DNA of 64,000 bases. Origin: the human T2T-CHM13v2.0 reference genome, Homo sapiens. Every line of letters starts with the position of its first letter. The first letter of the stretch is position 1. A model generated the notes under the pieces. That model ran no database searches. It saw only the letters and a list, made by a program, of their open reading frames with translations, and was not told the origin of the DNA. The stretch lies in the NCBI RefSeq assembly GCF_009914755.1, contig NC_060940.1; one strand, given 5' to 3'. Shown piece by piece: positions 4,914-31,280 of this stretch. A program made the translations under genes and the position numbers.

Positions 4914-5079
4914 CAGCAGCATGTGGACCATAGCATCTGTGGGCTGTGGGAGGAAGGCCAGTGATGAGAGCCACGCCTCCACCTCGTCTGCCTCCACCGC
5001 TGCTGATGCGATGAGTTCCTTCATGAGGCCCACACAGTGCTCCGTCCCACAGGAAGGCAGGGCATCCAACAGTGGCTGC
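4914..5079 (-). CDS. LOC400499: LLTP-family gene exon 10: [55 protein letters not shown] (gene continues beyond the left edge)
   Basis: gatctcag|G CAG...CTG|gtgagt; 166 nt. LLDALPxCGT is typical of LLTP helical domains, with CxxxxC as in apoB QCGQPQC. Confidence 0.9.
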
Positions 5080-6187
5080 CTGAGATCATCAAGGTGACCC
5101 ACACGTGCTGAGCGCCTGCAAAGCTCATCTCACCGAAGTCACCCGGGGGTAAACTGAGGCTCAGAGAGGTACGGTGCAGACATGCCCACCCTCACACCTT
5201 GGGAGGGGCTGACCCGGGTCTGGGGACCCCGCAGTCTGGCTGAGGCCCGTGCTCTCAGCACAGCAGCACCCAGCCCAGACCCCGGCAGCTCTACCCACCC
5301 AAGAAACACTGGTGTGGGAAAACACAAGTCCGCATGCAGTGCTCTGCTGAAACCCACCCAAGCAAATGTCACCGAGAAGGGGTAAAAATCCCTAGCGGAA
5401 CAGGAACCAGCAATCAGCAAACAGTCCCTAATTTAAACCTCGAATACTCAGCACAACATCAGGACATTTATTTTTTCTTTTTTTGTGAGTTAGGGTCTCA
5501 CTCTGTCACCCAGGCTGCAGTGCAGTGGTGCGATCACACCTCACTGTAGCCGCCACCTCCTGGGCTCAGGTGATCCTCCCACTCAGCCTCCCAAGTAGCT
5601 GGGACCACAAGTGTTCGCTACCAAGTCGAGCTAACTTTTAAATTTTTTGTAGAGATGGGTGCATTGCTATGTTGCCCAGGCTGGTCTCAAACTCCTGAGC
5701 ATAGCCGTAAGCTGACTGAGTTAGTGCCTCAGAGATTCCCCTCTGAGATTGGGAGTCTCTTTACCTGCCTTACTAGCCCCAGATCAGCAAGGTCTGGGTG
5801 GTGGAATGCCGGCCCTGCCCAGCACCCCCCAGCCCAGACTCTCCACGCCCCCAGCAGGAGGGTACCCTAGGTGCATTGGAATGCTAATTCCAGCAAGAGG
5901 GTCCCTGTCTGGGGAAGGGAACAATGGCTGTCTTTATCCGCCAGGCCCTTCAGCTTCTGGTCTCAGGCAGGATAGAGCTTGGACCCCGTGGGAACCTCCA
6001 GGCTCCCCACTTAATCTCCTTCTTGGCGCACATTCTCAGACTGAAGGACAAGTCAGTGTCAAGGGGACGGGATGAGGCATCAGCATCCATCCCTCACTGG
6101 GAACCCAGGACAGCACGAAGACTCCTTTAACCCAGGGATGCCCCCAGCCAGCTCCTAGTCCATCCCCCACCCGGAGAGGGACCTTAC

Positions 6188-6291
6188 CCATTGTCTCGGC
6201 ATTTGAAGGAAGAATATTGCCAGAGTTCCATCAGCTCACCCCCAGAAAGGCCCTGGAGCTGGGACACCAGTGTCAGGAACAAGTCCATGGC
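6188..6291 (-). CDS. LOC400499: LLTP-family gene exon 9: [34 protein letters not shown](G)
   Basis: gaatcccag|GCC...AAT GG|gtaagg; 104 nt. Resembles apoB ANLFNKLVTELRGLS, the start of the alpha-helical domain. Confidence 0.88.
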
Positions 6292-6727
6292 CTGGGATTC
6301 AGAGGGGGCAGCATGAGACACCCAGCAGTGCGGGGGATCCCCGAAGGTCACCTCACCCGTCCCCTGCCTGTAAGCACAACCGTGGGGAAAGTGGGAAGGA
6401 CCTACCACCTTCTCCCAGGATGTGCTGAGACCCAGTGAGATGAAGCTCCAGGTCTGGCTTCTCCCTCACTGCACCCCAAGCCCCTACAAGCATACAAGCT
6501 GGCTCATTTTTCTCTGATTTAGCAGGTATTTATTGAGCACCTACTATGTGCCTTGCATTGCACTCAGGATATGGCAGTGAAAGAACAGGCATAGTGTCTG
6601 AATCTGTGGCATCTAATAAAACCCCAATAAATGTTCACTATGATTGTAATATAATTATTCTAATGAGTCTTAGCATATTTCAAATATTTAGCGAGGTGGC
6701 AATCTTTTCCTACATAATATACATACT

Positions 6728-27578: not shown

Positions 27579-27919
27579 CTGAAATCGCAAATCAGATGGA
27601 ACCAGGGTGAGGCCAGAAAGAGGCATAAGATAGCCCCACGCTATGGGCCACTGACCTTACTCTGGGAAGAAGATGAGAAATGATAATGCCAGCTCTCCCC
27701 AGACTTTGCAAAATGTCCTCAGGGGAGGGAGGGCCACAAAGACTGGAAGTGATTGCCCTACCCTTTGTCCAATTTGCTCTTGTTCATCTTGGGTACTGGC
27801 ACCATCATCCCTGATAGCTCAAGCTGCCAATCATTCGTGCTTCCACATCCCTCATCACTACCTGAGTCCAATATGTCAGCAAGCTCTGCCAATTCCATCA
27901 ACAAATACAGGTCTCCATT

Positions 27920-28500
27920 CCTCCCATCCATCAATCCATCTACCCATCCCCACTCCCATCCATCCACCCACCTGCTCCCTGCTCCTATCCATCCATTCAT
28001 CCATCCAACCACCCCCACCCCCACTCCTATCCACCCACCCCCAATTCCCCTATCCATCCACCCACCCGCTCCCCTCTCCTATCCATCTATCTGCCCACTC
28101 CCCACACCCCTCCTATACACCCACCCCCAACCCCCCTCCTACGCATCCATTCACCCACTCCCCCTCCCATCCATCCACCCACCCCCAGCCCCCCTCCTAT
28201 CCATCCATCCACGCATCACTTCCACCTCCTATCCATCCACCCACCCCCCCATCCGTCCATCCACCCCCCAACCCCCCAATCCATCCATCCACCCACCCAC
28301 TACCCTCTCCTATCCATCCATCCACCTACTCACCCATTCCCCCTCCTATCCATCTACCCACTCACCCACTCCCTCTCCTATCCATCCATCCACCCACCCA
28401 CTCCCCGCTGTTATCCATGCATCCATCCATTCACCCACTCTCCCTCCTATCCATCCATCCACCCAGCCACCCACCCTCTCCTGTCTCCTATCCATCCAAG
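27920..28500. repeat. (CCAT/CCAC)n low-complexity tract
   Basis: Degenerate ccatccatcc repeats; source of the Pro/His-rich spurious ORFs. Confidence 0.92.
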
Positions 28501-31213
28501 TGACTTGCCCAGGTGCACACAGCTGGCTAACGGTGGAGCCTTAGGATTTGAACCCAGGCACTCTGGCTCCAGAGTCCCCAGCCATACCCTCATCCTGAAT
28601 GAATCAGACAGTAAGTGAGCAAATGAGTAATGAATGGAACACCAGCAAGACCAAGAGGCTGCTGCAGGAAATAGCAGGAGCTGGTGCTGCTCCCTGTTGA
28701 GTGTCTCCCTTCTCCCACCATCGAAGGGGCAGAGGACAACCAGGGCATGAGCAGATGTGGTGAGGTGGCCCCTCGGCCCCCAGCTCAGGCTGCTAAGAAA
28801 ACTGCCAGAGATTCCTGGAGCTCCCTCCCTGGGAAGGCCAGCACCCCTCCCTCCCTCCCTCCAGCCACCCAGCCCTTCCACTGCCACCTACTTTCAAACC
28901 TCGTTTCCCCTTCCTGCCAGCCACTTGCAGGATCTTTCCCAGGCATCACCCGTGCCCTCCTATGCATTAAGCAGGCATTCATCTGCAGCCATTTCCATAG
29001 GATGGCATTTCAATAATACCACTTCCATCCTCAAAACCACCCCGCTGCACCTCGACTGGTCATTGCTACACTTGCTGACCTGTTTAATCCCTCGAAAAAC
29101 ACATTGTGCCTGGGTACGGTGGCTCATGCCTGTAATCCCAGTACTTTGGGAAGCTGAGGTGGGTGATGGCTTGAGCTCAGGAGTTCGAGACCAGCCTGGC
29201 CAGCATGGCGAAACCCCCTCTCTATAAAAAATACAAAAATTAGCCGGGCGTGGTGGTGCACACCTGTGGTCCCAGCTACTCGTGGGAGGTGGGAGAATTG
29301 CTTGAGCCGACAGGTGGAGATTGCAGTGAGCCGAGATCGCACCACTGCCTGGTGCGATCGTATTCCAGCCTGGGTAGCAGAGTTAAGACCTTGTCCCAAA
29401 AAAAAAAAAAAAAGGAAAAACAAATCATTTCCCCAAAACGGGGAGGGGTGGAGGTAGGGTGCATTATATACTATTTTGTTTACACCCTTTAAAACATTGG
29501 ACATGGTAAGATATCTGGCAGGGTTTTTTTCTCCTAAATATTTTGGCACATCTAACAAAACCCTCTTTGCATTCAAGTAGAATATCAACAGATAAAACCA
29601 CATTTCAAAGACATTCAACCCAATCAATTTCCCTTCCAACTTTCCTTCAACTCTTTGATCACTCGGACACTGGGCACCAAATTAAACATATGTGTGCGTA
29701 ATCATTACGTTCTCGATTGTGCACAAGCCCAGCATCCTGCTTGTTTGCTCAACAGACAATCCCTACATCTGCTTCACTGCTCAGCTAGGCTACAAAGCAG
29801 CCTGGCCCACCAGCCTCCAGCCACCATGACCTGCAGAAGTGAGCTGAGGTCTGAGAGCATTGTGCTTGAATTAAGCCTGTACCCCTTCCATTTCCTGAAC
29901 GCTTGAACACATTTAAAATATTTTTTAAATTTCAGAAAAATGAAGTTCATGTCATGATAAATTCTTAACAGATTAACCAAGGATGGGAAAACACTGCACA
30001 CTGGAGGTAATAAATTCTTCAATCAGATCCTACTCACTTCCAGGAAGAGATCTGAAATGGACTGAAATGAGTGTCATCTCTAGCCAGCAAATGAAATCAA
30101 GTCCCATTTCAGCTTTCTCAGCTGTCAATTCTGATCAGTGTGCATTCTTTTATGAAACCAACACAATTTACCAAGTACCTATAGCATGCCAGACAGTGTT
30201 CTATGCTGAAATAAAAGCCCAAATATCAAAACAATTACATCATTTACAACAAATAAAAGACCCCACAATCTGGCCCGCGCTCTCCAGTATGTGGCTATGA
30301 AGCATCTAAAATGTTACTGGTTACAGAGAAACTTTTCATTTAATTTTAATTAAACAAAAAACCAATACTCAATTCACTTATTATAAGACTTTCAGCCTGG
30401 TGCAGTGGCTCATGCCTGTAATCCCAGCACTCTGGGAGGATCACTTGAGTTTGAGACCAGCCTGGGCAACATGGTGAAACCCCGTCTCCACAAAAAATAT
30501 TTTTTAAAGAAAGAAAACTTTCAAATATGTTTGAAACAACTTGGCACAGTAGGTAAACCTACTTTCTCAACTCTAAGTTTTAAGAAATCTAAAGACAGAT
30601 CAAGTATTTGCAATGAAAACTTAGCATCTGAATTGAAATATGTCGTAAGTATAAAATACACATTAAATGTTGAATGGGAAATAAATCTCATTAATACTTC
30701 CTATTGATTACATTTTCTAATTATATATTGGATATATTGGGTTAAGTAAAATGTTATTAATTTCACCTGCCTTTTTAAAAATTTGTATGTGTGGGTACTA
30801 GGAAAATTAATATTACTTGCATTTTTTTGTTGCTGAGACAATGTCTCACTCTGTCGCCCAAGTTGGAGTGCAGTGGCATGATCTCGGCTCACTGCAGCCT
30901 CGACCTGCTGGGCTCAAGCTCAGTGGGTCCAGAAGGCAGCATTTTCTCACTCAGGGCTTCAGATCTGGTCTCTGCAGCTCCCCAATCCCTGCCTTGTCTG
31001 AGTTTCCAGAGGATGCTGGTGGAGCATGTGAGTGAGAGATGAGGATTCACCTGTCATCTCTCGCTCCTCTTCCCCATGAAAAGCAAAACAAAAGGTGGCA
31101 GCGGAAAGGCAGGTCAACAGGCATCTGGCTACAAAAGCGCAATCCCCGGCGCATCTGGACTGCCCCTTGCTTCGCTCCAGACAGGACCAGGAACGCGCAG
31201 CAGTTTTACTTAC

Positions 31214-31280
31214 TCTCCGCAGTCACTGCCATCAGCGGCCAGAGCAGGACCAGACCGAGGAGTCCCACGGGGGCCGGCAT
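31214..31280 (-). CDS. LOC400499: LLTP-family gene coding exon 1: signal peptide [22 protein letters not shown]
   Basis: ATG in gaagtgATGc (purine at -3); hydrophobic core ending V-T-A; perfect donor GAGA|gtaagt, phase 1. Confidence 0.85.

What the first reader, a model, noticed from the sequence alone, without database searches (positions are those of the whole stretch)
4914..31280. Hidden intact apoB/MTP/vitellogenin-superfamily (LLTP) gene: 10 spliced exons, 415 codons, secreted
Seen in sequence: ten short minus-strand exons (67, 54, 161, 71, 166, 135, 181, 140, 104, 166 nt) with GT-AG introns and matching phases join into 1245 nt with no stop, starting with a signal peptide. Established knowledge: the motifs [46 protein letters not shown]...L.EASC.E, LF..LV..L..LS and [10 protein letters not shown] occur in the order expected for the vitellogenin-N/LLT module (beta-barrel, then alpha-helical domain) of apoB, MTP and apolipophorin. 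Placental mammals are usually described as having only APOB and MTTP from this family, the vitellogenins having been lost. Inference: this is an additional, apparently intact, secreted lipid-transfer protein gene. From memory it is the locus called LOC400499, which has essentially no functional characterisation, so it could represent an undescribed lipoprotein or lipid-carrier system.
Basis: partly seen in the sequence, partly recalled or inferred. Interest (0 to 1): 0.95.

Follow-up and report, generated by a model that had tools for sequence, protein, structure and literature searches.

The report
Uncharacterised third human large lipid-transfer gene
These ten exons are the real start of LOC400499, an annotated but unstudied human gene for a very large secreted lipid-carrier protein related to apolipoprotein B and insect apolipophorins.

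Summary
Ten minus-strand exons join through 9 of 9 GT..AG introns into 1245 nt, 415 codons, with no stop. Four of the 9 exons long enough to scan hit Pfam Vitellogenin_N in colinear order; exon 5 alone scores 37.2 bits against a cut-off of 24. An AlphaFold model of the 95%-identical orangutan protein gives a beta-barrel followed by helices. Its 11 best PDB matches are all apoB-100, lipovitellin, MTP or honeybee vitellogenin.

The exons are the 5' end of LOC400499. A human 3285-aa model shares 378 of 380 residues with the window. It carries Vitellogenin_N, the open beta-sheet, a 527-position Pfam domain named "LOC400499 family" (PF21013), VWD and C8. Orthologues occur from sharks to placentals, and their tree follows the species tree.

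The gene is not hidden. RefSeq annotates it, Pfam names a family after it, and a paper quotes its Ensembl description as a lipoprotein N-terminal-region protein. Eight literature searches found no functional study. Gene-list papers point to neutrophil-enriched expression.

Verdict: the reading is correct, the gene is already catalogued, its function is open, and it is evolving fast in placentals.

The parts
31214..31280 (-). Coding exon 1: start ATG at 31280, aa 1-22, signal peptide; the donor reads GTAAGT.
   Evidence: sequence. One search shows the hydrophobic core. One search shows the hydrophobic N-terminus conserved across orthologues.
27525..27578 (-). Coding exon 2, aa 23-40, with the conserved C-x3-C pair (C35, C39). 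An internal Met36 is the start of human isoform X3 (P0317).
   Evidence: Searches show C35 and C39 nearly invariant.
26057..26217 (-). Coding exon 3, aa 41-94: first strands of the N-sheet beta-barrel (motif GTRYTY).
   Evidence: Vitellogenin_N profile 4-47, E 0.0029; strands 51-65, 73-85 and 90-104.
23005..23075 (-). Coding exon 4, aa 95-117: barrel strands.
   Evidence: No Pfam hit when scanned alone. Covered by the whole-protein hit of P0003.
20247..20412 (-). Coding exon 5, aa 118-173: the most conserved motif ([17 protein letters not shown]), forming the helix inside the barrel.
   Evidence: Vitellogenin_N profile 82-119, E 1.7e-9, 37.2 bits (cut-off 24); best PDB match is apoB-100 residues 125-169; helix 146-159.
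20169..20246 (-). A 78-nt intron that is in frame and free of stops. Retaining it would insert 26 residues into the barrel.
   Evidence: continuous 126-aa translation. Database fragments P0001 and P0006 read through it.
20034..20168 (-). Coding exon 6, aa 174-218: barrel strands with invariant C180 and C200, then a variable loop.
   Evidence: profile 138-172, E 0.11..
18480..18660 (-). Coding exon 7, aa 219-278: last barrel strands with invariant C227 and C241. It also holds two residues that differ from the GRCh38-based model (aa 251 and 269).
   Evidence: No Pfam hit when scanned alone.
12830..12969 (-). Coding exon 8, aa 279-325: variable acidic linker and the first helix of the alpha-helical subdomain.
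   Evidence: pLDDT 63-70, helix 302-318.
6188..6291 (-). Coding exon 9, aa 326-359: helices of the alpha subdomain.
   Evidence: helices 324-338 and 342-348.
4914..5079 (-). Coding exon 10, aa 360-415 (motif [10 protein letters not shown]): helices of the alpha subdomain. The gene continues to the left of the window.
   Evidence: Vitellogenin_N profile 361-412, E 3.7e-4; the goat orthologue aligns on to apoB-100 residue 450.

Best explanation
The ten exons are the first ten coding exons of LOC400499. [quoted passage not shown]

The window encodes three parts: the signal peptide (aa 1-21), the N-sheet beta-barrel (about aa 50-275) and the first helices of the alpha-helical subdomain (aa 300-415). 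Downstream, outside the window, the human protein continues with the rest of Vitellogenin_N, the open beta-sheet that closes the lipid cavity, the family-specific PF21013 domain, about 1450 further residues, and a C-terminal VWD-C8 pair. That architecture is the apolipophorin/vitellogenin type. It is not the apoB or MTP type.

Most likely mechanism (inferred, not shown): the nascent chain enters the ER through its signal peptide. The LLT module folds into a lipid-holding cavity. The protein is then secreted as a lipid-carrying particle or a large lipid-binding glycoprotein. I put a lipid-carrier role at about 0.6. I put at about 0.3 that its main site in humans is the neutrophil/myeloid lineage with a defence-related role, as is known for insect apolipophorins and vitellogenins. 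The confidence figure below refers to what the gene is, not to this mechanism.
For: SHOWN.
- Exon structure and open frame.
- Vitellogenin_N hits: exon 5 alone scores 37.2 bits; orangutan P0003 E 7.1e-28 and goat P0005 E 6.2e-38; human P0317 E 1.2e-61.
- P0317 aa 1-380 matches window model aa 36-415 at 378 of 380 residues.
- P0317 domains: Vit_open_b-sht 1.4e-56, PF21013 1.7e-285, VWD 2.1e-6, C8 3.4e-5.
- Fold: the AF2 model of P0003 has pLDDT 76.6 and pTM 0.71. Foldseek ranks 1-11 are all LLTP structures: apoB-100 barrel E 4.5e-20 with TMq 0.65, lipovitellin 1.1e-16, MTP 1.4e-15, honeybee vitellogenin 7.3e-14.
- Closest solved sequence is apoB-100: 4.1e-10 with P0005 and 2.9e-34 with P0317, over residues 17-884 only.
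- Orthologues named (120 listed of 310, and 120 listed of 261) span sharks, sturgeons, amphibians, squamates, turtles, crocodilians, birds, monotremes, marsupials and many placentals.
- The family is one clade (support 100) whose branching follows the species tree (FastTree, 65 rows).
- The hydrophobic N-terminus is conserved across the family.
- Conservation is uneven along the protein, with invariant cysteines and a conserved core motif next to variable loops.

FROM PAPERS (passages only).
- ENSG00000188897 = AC099489.1 (PMC8322527 table).
- AC099489.1 is 'particularly enriched in neutrophils' (PMC13020295).
- It is listed among neutrophil genes in a monocyte data set (PMC11848799).
- qPCR detected it in human liver samples with primers lying in exon 3 (PMC11725579).
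Against: - Only 10 of the 67 annotated exons lie in the window, so I could not check the other exons' DNA. The intactness of the rest rests on database protein P0317, a predicted XP_ isoform that starts at Met36 and lacks the signal peptide.
- The protein evolves fast. Human-macaque identity is 91.4% over 3281 aligned residues and human-dog 72.1%. With neutral divergences recalled from memory this suggests dN/dS near 0.5-0.6 in primates. That is a crude inference, and no codon-based test was possible.
- Two residues differ between the T2T window and P0317 within 380 aa.
- One paper calls the locus a long non-coding RNA (PMC13020295).
- Protein-level evidence is a single listing in a proteomics table (PMC8066727).
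- No lipid-binding, secretion or cell-type experiment was found.
- The neutrophil link comes from bulk-tissue gene lists, and nothing shows which isoform is expressed.
Confidence: 0.9

Rival explanations
1. In humans the locus is a transcribed relic. On this view it is an lncRNA or a decaying unitary pseudogene whose open frame is a leftover, and no functional protein is made.
For: [quoted passage not shown] Divergence is high for a mammalian protein. There are two amino-acid differences between two human assemblies in 380 aa. The placental stem branch is long (0.33), and a central stretch of about 534 aa has been lost in placentals. Protein evidence is very thin.
Against: The human protein model of 3285 aa keeps all five Pfam domains through to the C-terminal C8. 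Gibbon, macaque, Aotus, Saimiri, Cebus and gorilla models of 3103-3317 aa exist. Over that span a neutral frame of about 10 kb would be expected to collect many stops and frameshifts (inference). Conservation is patterned: the structural core and cysteines are kept while loops vary. Per the hub table, RefSeq gives the gene an NM_ coding transcript.
Confidence: 0.08
2. It is a liver or intestine plasma-lipoprotein scaffold that works like apoB, building circulating lipoprotein particles, rather than a myeloid protein.
For: ApoB-100 is the closest solved relative by both sequence and fold. There is a suggestive, not genome-wide, HDL-C association at an intronic SNP (P 3.9e-6, n = 451; PMC10869499 passage). 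qPCR gave a signal in human liver tissue (PMC11725579).
Against: Similarity to apoB stops at residue 884 of the human protein. The C-terminus is VWD-C8, which apoB lacks. The expression passages point to neutrophils, lung and lymphoid tissue. The liver samples were diseased tissue, which can contain infiltrating leukocytes (inference).
Confidence: 0.12
3. It is a surviving vitellogenin (yolk-protein) gene, as the automatic names 'vitellogenin-like' suggest.
For: NCBI names the short orangutan and Geoffroy's cat models 'vitellogenin-like'. The protein has a Vitellogenin_N domain and a C-terminal VWD, as vitellogenins do.
Against: At 3300-4100 aa it is about twice the size of a vitellogenin. No Vit_b-sht_shell or other yolk-specific domain appears at E <= 1e-3 in 9 of 9 family members scanned. 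Lipovitellin and honeybee vitellogenin score worse than apoB-100. The family has its own PF21013 domain. It is kept in placentals, marsupials and birds alike.
Confidence: 0.02

Closest known systems
Apolipoprotein B-100 (human; PDB 9bd1, 9bd8)
   Same: It has an N-terminal LLT module with an N-sheet barrel, a helical subdomain and an open beta-sheet. ApoB-100 is the best solved match by sequence (E 2.9e-34) and by fold (E 4.5e-20, TMq 0.65). Both are very large and carry a signal peptide.
   Different: Similarity ends at about residue 884. LOC400499 has a PF21013 domain and a C-terminal VWD-C8 that apoB lacks. All 150 listed library representatives score at least 75 bits with the goat N-terminus, against 42 bits for human apoB-100. 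Many unnamed LLTPs are therefore closer to this family than apoB is.
Insect apolipophorin II/I precursor and other invertebrate VWD-bearing LLTPs
   Same: The domain order is Vitellogenin_N, open beta-sheet, long middle region, then C-terminal VWD (with C8). The nearest non-family representatives (P0027, P0036, P0040; taxa unknown) have this order, and P0027 also hits PF21013 weakly (4.6e-34). NCBI pipelines name a snake orthologue 'apolipophorins' and a dog model 'apolipophorins-like'.
   Different: DUF1081 was not detected in the human protein or in 8 other family members. A furin-type RRxR motif in the barrel loop is present in only some placentals, so it is not a family feature. No named apolipophorin sequence was available for a direct tree.
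Vitellogenin / lipovitellin (PDB 1lsh, 9enr)
   Same: It shares the LLT module and a C-terminal VWD. Matches are E 4.4e-14 by sequence and 1.1e-16 by fold.
   Different: It is about twice as long, has no yolk-specific domains, and is retained in placental mammals.
Microsomal triglyceride transfer protein large subunit (PDB 6i7s)
   Same: It shares the N-sheet and helical subdomain. Matches are E 1.6e-6 by sequence and 1.4e-15 by fold.
   Different: MTP is about 890 aa and stays in the ER. No MTP_lip_bd hit was found in the family. LOC400499 is more than three times longer and carries VWD-C8.

Membership tests
LLTP superfamily (Pfam Vitellogenin_N, lipoprotein N-terminal region) | Vitellogenin_N match above Pfam's gathering score | tested here: met
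   Exon 5 alone scores 37.2 bits against a cut-off of 24. Orangutan P0003 scores 98 bits and goat P0005 131 bits. Human P0317 scores 209.5 bits.
LLTP superfamily | N-sheet beta-barrel wrapped round a helix, followed by a helical subdomain | tested here: met
   The AF2 model of P0003 is 95% identical to the window's aa 1-349. It has strands at 51-272, helix 146-159 and helices 302-348. Foldseek ranks 1-11 are all LLTP structures. The model is of the orangutan protein, not the human one.
LLTP superfamily | Open beta-sheet (A/C sheets) closing a lipid cavity | tested here: met
   Vit_open_b-sht matches P0317 residues 583-874, E 1.4e-56. This region lies outside the window.
LLTP superfamily | Binds lipid | not testable with these tools
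   No assay was possible.
LLTP superfamily (secreted members) | N-terminal signal peptide | tested here: inconclusive
   The hydrophobic core and small residues at -3/-1 are read from the sequence, and the feature is conserved across orthologues. No signal-peptide predictor was available.
Pfam PF21013 'LOC400499 family' | The 527-position PF21013 domain | tested here: met
   P0317 residues 1044-1570, E 1.7e-285. All 9 of 9 family members scanned carry it, as do the 7 closest of the 13 proteins scanned. The domain lies outside the window. It is linked to the window through P0317's N-terminus.
Apolipoprotein B | Colinear similarity along the whole chain, with no VWD | tested here: not met
   Only residues 17-884 align to apoB-100. 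VWD and C8 are present at the C-terminus.
Vitellogenin | Yolk-specific domains (Vit_b-sht_shell, phosvitin region) and a length of about 1300-1900 aa | tested here: not met
   No such Pfam hit at E <= 1e-3 in 9 of 9 members. Lengths are 3198-4102 aa.
Insect-type apolipophorin II/I | Vitellogenin_N + open beta-sheet + DUF1081 + C-terminal VWD, with furin cleavage into two chains | tested here: inconclusive
   Vitellogenin_N, the open beta-sheet and VWD are present, but DUF1081 is not detected. The one RRxR motif examined is not conserved. No named apolipophorin was at hand for a tree.
MTP large subunit | MTP_lip_bd domain and a length of about 900 aa | tested here: not met
   No MTP_lip_bd hit. 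The length is about 3300 aa.

The most novel reading that the evidence does not exclude
Humans, and jawed vertebrates in general, have a third working LLTP system besides apoB and MTP. It would be an apolipophorin-like, VWD-bearing giant lipoprotein made mainly by neutrophils and other myeloid cells. It would act in host defence, for example by binding microbial or host lipids or by forming VWD-mediated assemblies, as insect apolipophorins, vitellogenins and crustacean clotting proteins do. Its fast evolution and central deletion in placentals would then reflect a change of role.
Probability: 0.25. Interest if true: 0.85.

Novelty: already known. Interest (0 to 1): 0.5.

Why it matters
Accounts of the LLTP superfamily list apoB, MTP, vitellogenin and insect apolipophorin II/I; the 2025 honeybee vitellogenin paper does so (PMC12214520, passages). 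This locus is a further lineage. It is conserved from sharks to humans, about 3300-4100 residues long, and has its own Pfam domain. None of my eight searches found a paper that treats its function.

If the protein is made and carries lipid, it is an unstudied component of human lipid transport or innate immunity. It also sits in a region that recurs in association and selection scans. The practical value of this report is to show that the gene model is sound at its 5' end and to state what would test its function. It is not the discovery of a new sequence feature.

Tried and rejected
1. Scanning single exons against PDB sequences was weak. Exon 5 matched apoB-100 at only E 0.11, and exon 10 matched only designed helical proteins. 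I replaced this with orthologue proteins.

2. A furin-type RRGR motif (aa 203-206) in a low-confidence barrel loop looked like an apolipophorin-style cleavage site. It is absent in macaque, gibbon, three rodents and all non-placentals, so I rejected it as a family feature.

3. The protein atlas run on outgroup fragment P0030 gave only general LLTP clusters and no usable taxa. The taxa of the 23 outgroup rows in the tree remain unknown.

4. P0035 (4822 aa, no VWD) was tested as a possible apoB orthologue. It aligns to apoB-100 only over residues 29-966, so it is not one.

5. No Rfam family reaches its gathering score in window 1-34000.

7. The spliced 415-aa human protein was not sent to any search or folding tool. 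Orangutan P0003 and goat P0005 served as stand-ins, so no structure model or whole-protein Pfam score exists for the exact human N-terminus. Human P0317, which covers aa 36-415, was scanned.

8. dN/dS could not be computed, because no orthologue DNA was available.

9. Supplementary tables of the gene-list papers were not opened. They may hold expression values for the locus.

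
Full report
OBSERVATION

A script rebuilt the model from the window. The ten minus-strand exons are 67, 54, 161, 71, 166, 135, 181, 140, 104 and 166 nt long. 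Each of the nine introns starts with GT and ends with AG, and the phases agree. The joined 1245 nt give 415 codons with no stop, starting at the ATG at 31280. The donor of exon 1 reads GTAAGT. The N-terminus has a hydrophobic stretch at aa 3-17, followed by V-T-A and a charged residue. That reads as a signal peptide, although no predictor was available to confirm it.

IS IT MORE THAN CHANCE, AND WHAT IS IT

Nine exons of 20 aa or more were scanned one by one against Pfam.
- Four hit Vitellogenin_N in colinear order: exon 3 at profile 4-47 (E 0.0029), exon 5 at 82-119 (E 1.7e-9, 37.2 bits against a cut-off of 24), exon 6 at 138-172 (E 0.11), and exon 10 at 361-412 (E 3.7e-4).
- The other five gave no LLTP hit; one of them gave a chance-level AAA_lid_3 match.
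- Exon 2 was too short to scan.

A search with exon 5 for longer proteins returned three named mammalian models: orangutan 'vitellogenin-like' (P0003, 349 aa), Geoffroy's cat 'vitellogenin-like' (P0004) and a partial goat protein (P0005, 430 aa). It also returned three fragments that read through introns. P0003 is identical to the window model at 333 of 349 positions.

These proteins served as stand-ins for the spliced human protein, which was not sent to any search or folding tool.
- They hit Vitellogenin_N at E 7.1e-28, 1.7e-26 and 6.2e-38.
- Against PDB sequences, the goat protein matches apoB-100 best (E 4.1e-10, residues 22-400 against 51-450). MTP follows at 1.6e-6, honeybee vitellogenin at 0.016 and lipovitellin at 0.063.
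- An AlphaFold2 model of P0003, built on a 26-row alignment, has mean pLDDT 76.6 and pTM 0.71. It shows strands from 51 to 272 around helix 146-159, then helices 302-348.
- Foldseek against the PDB puts LLTP structures at ranks 1-11: the apoB-100 barrel (E 4.5e-20, TMq 0.65), lipovitellin (1.1e-16), MTP (1.4e-15) and honeybee vitellogenin (7.3e-14). Rank 12 falls to E 3.3e-5 with TMq 0.20.

THE WHOLE GENE AND ITS FAMILY

A profile-free scan of 1.84 billion representatives with P0005 found 476 proteins at E <= 1e-3 and 42 at E <= 1e-30. These include relatives of 2800-3900 aa.

Pfam on 13 of them showed a recurring architecture: Vitellogenin_N, Vit_open_b-sht, a 527-position domain that Pfam itself calls 'LOC400499 family' (PF21013), then VWD and C8 at the C-terminus.

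Two name-bearing searches listed orthologues.
- (120 shown of 310) listed turtles, crocodilians, birds, squamates, amphibians, monotremes, marsupials, sturgeon, paddlefish and sharks.
- (120 shown of 261) listed many placentals, including gibbon, macaque, gorilla, New World monkeys, colugo, rabbit, three muroid rodents, carnivores, ungulates, cetaceans and afrotherians.
- Nearly all are named 'uncharacterized protein'. The exceptions are inconsistent: 'apolipophorins', 'apolipophorins-like', 'apolipoprotein B-100' and 'vitellogenin-like'.
- No Mus or Rattus row is among those shown. That does not establish absence.

One search also returned the human protein P0317 (XP_016879420.1, 'putative uncharacterized protein LOC400499 isoform X3', 3285 aa). 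Its residues 1-380 equal aa 36-415 of the window model at 378 of 380 positions. It starts at an internal Met in exon 2 and so lacks the signal peptide. Gibbon and macaque models carry the full 415-residue N-terminus at about 92% identity.

P0317 has these domains:
- Vitellogenin_N at 15-550 (E 1.2e-61)
- Vit_open_b-sht at 583-874 (E 1.4e-56)
- PF21013 at 1044-1570 (E 1.7e-285)
- VWD at 3036-3183
- C8 at 3228-3274

Against the PDB it matches apoB-100 only over residues 17-884 (E 2.9e-34). It also matches lipovitellin (4.4e-14), von Willebrand factor and mucin D assemblies at the C-terminus (about 1e-8), and MTP (4e-6).

A FastTree tree of the first 1050 residues of 65 proteins puts all 42 family members in one clade with support 100. 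Within that clade the order is sharks, ray-finned fishes, amphibians, sauropsids, monotremes, marsupials and placentals. This is the pattern of a single-copy gene inherited vertically since early jawed vertebrates. The 23 outgroup rows are unnamed library representatives. The tool warned about several long branches among them, so the position of the family relative to apoB, vitellogenin and apolipophorin is not resolved here.

One indirect point bears on that question. All 150 listed representatives score at least 75 bits with P0005, whereas human apoB-100 scores 42 bits. Many unnamed LLTPs are therefore closer to this family than apoB is. Some of them have the order Vitellogenin_N, open beta-sheet, DUF1081, VWD and C8.

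RATE AND CONSTRAINT

Full-length identities to human are as follows:

| Species | Identity to human |
|---|---|
| Macaque | 91.4% (3000 of 3281) |
| Dog | 72.1% |
| Hamster | 62.9% |
| Wallaby | 54.5% |
| Turtle | 46.4% |
| White shark | 37.7% |

The gorilla figure (95.0%) is lower than neutral divergence would allow, so that model must contain prediction errors. All these figures are thus upper bounds on divergence.

In the tree, the path from the amniote node to human sums to about 0.80 changes per column. The same path sums to about 0.22 for a turtle, 0.36 for a bird and 0.54 for a marsupial. The placental stem alone is 0.33 (the sums are mine). Placentals also lack a contiguous central stretch. 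It covers about 534 aligned residues, at wallaby 2081-2646.

With neutral divergences recalled from memory, the primate identities suggest dN/dS of roughly 0.5-0.6. This is an inference only.

Other evidence argues against decay. The frame stays open over more than 3100 codons in human, gibbon, macaque and three New World monkeys. Conservation is also patterned. Thirteen columns are invariant and about 25 more nearly invariant among 49 sequences within the first 349 residues, including six invariant cysteines, while the loops vary.

WHAT IS IN PRINT

I read passages only, not whole papers.

- 'LOC400499' occurs in 12 papers, 'ENSG00000188897' in 3 and 'AC099489.1' in 7. All are gene lists or association tables.
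- PMC8322527 equates that identifier with AC099489.1.
- PMC11848799 lists it beside MME, CXCL8, MGAM and MMP25.
- PMC11725579 measured it by qPCR in liver samples and states 'The LOC400499 gene remains unidentified'.
- PMC10869499 reports a suggestive HDL-C signal at an intronic SNP (P 3.9e-6).
- PMC10016042 reports a population-differentiation outlier SNP in the gene.
- PMC10647220 reports two associated SNPs in an IgA nephropathy exome study.
- PMC8066727 lists the protein in a joint-tissue proteomics table.

Searches combining LLTP terms, and a search for 'PF21013', found no paper that places this gene in the LLTP family or studies its function. PMC12214520 (2025) still lists the superfamily as apoB, MTP, vitellogenin and apolipophorin II/I. 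About 1.7 million PMC articles and most subscription journals are outside the searched library, so a description elsewhere cannot be excluded.

HOW IT PROBABLY WORKS

What is shown is the domain content and the fold of the N-terminus. The rest is inferred from what LLT modules do in apoB, vitellogenin and apolipophorin (established knowledge).
- The signal peptide takes the chain into the ER.
- The barrel, helical subdomain and open sheets form a lipid cavity.
- The long middle region may extend the lipid-binding surface.
- The VWD-C8 end may mediate disulfide-linked assembly or processing.

In apoB and vitellogenin the N-sheet barrel is the receptor-contact region; entry 9bd8 shows the apoB barrel on the LDL receptor. 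The part encoded in this window is therefore the candidate receptor or partner-binding face. My estimates are about 0.6 for a secreted lipid carrier, about 0.3 for a mainly myeloid defence role, about 0.12 for a hepatic apoB-like role, and about 0.08 for no functional protein in humans.

VERDICT

The observation and its interpretation are right. The locus is not hidden: it is annotated as coding, has a Pfam family named after it, and is described as a lipoprotein N-terminal-region protein. What remains open, and interesting, is its function, its cell of origin and the reason for its acceleration in placentals.

Noticed in passing
window 20169-20246 (-): The intron between coding exons 5 and 6 is only 78 nt, lies in frame and has no stop. 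Retaining it would add 26 residues inside the barrel. Three database fragments (P0001 and P0006, and partly P0002) read through introns here.
   Followed up: partly
window 18562-18564 and 18508-18510 (-), coding exon 7: The T2T window encodes Ser251 and Leu269. The GRCh38-based human model P0317 has Pro and His at these positions. That is two amino-acid differences between two human assemblies within 380 residues. The codon coordinates are computed from the exon start.
   Followed up: no
outside the window; macaque P0294 about aa 2087-2118, wallaby P0241 aa 2081-2646: All 12 placental sequences in alignment A2 lack a contiguous central stretch that 22 non-placental vertebrates keep; about 534 aligned residues are missing. 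The alignment consensus there shows recurring H-x4-L-x3-G-x-P-like motifs, which suggests that repeats were lost.
   Followed up: partly
family tree: The placental stem branch is long (0.33 changes per column). The path from the amniote node to human is about 3.6 times that to a turtle. Rodent paths are the longest.
   Followed up: partly
orthologue tables: Automatic names for orthologues are inconsistent: 'vitellogenin-like', 'apolipophorins', 'apolipophorins-like', 'apolipoprotein B-100', and mostly 'uncharacterized protein'. No Mus or Rattus entry is among the rows shown, although Cricetulus, Peromyscus and Acomys are.
   Followed up: no
window 31281-31290 (-): The bases just 5' of the start codon read CAGGAAGTG. 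From memory this resembles an ETS/PU.1 core, which would fit myeloid expression. It was not tested against any matrix or control.
   Followed up: no
human isoform X3 (P0317), start at Met36 in coding exon 2 (window 27525-27578): This predicted isoform skips the signal-peptide exon. If it is made, the protein would not enter the secretory pathway. Which first exon the neutrophil transcripts use is unknown.
   Followed up: no
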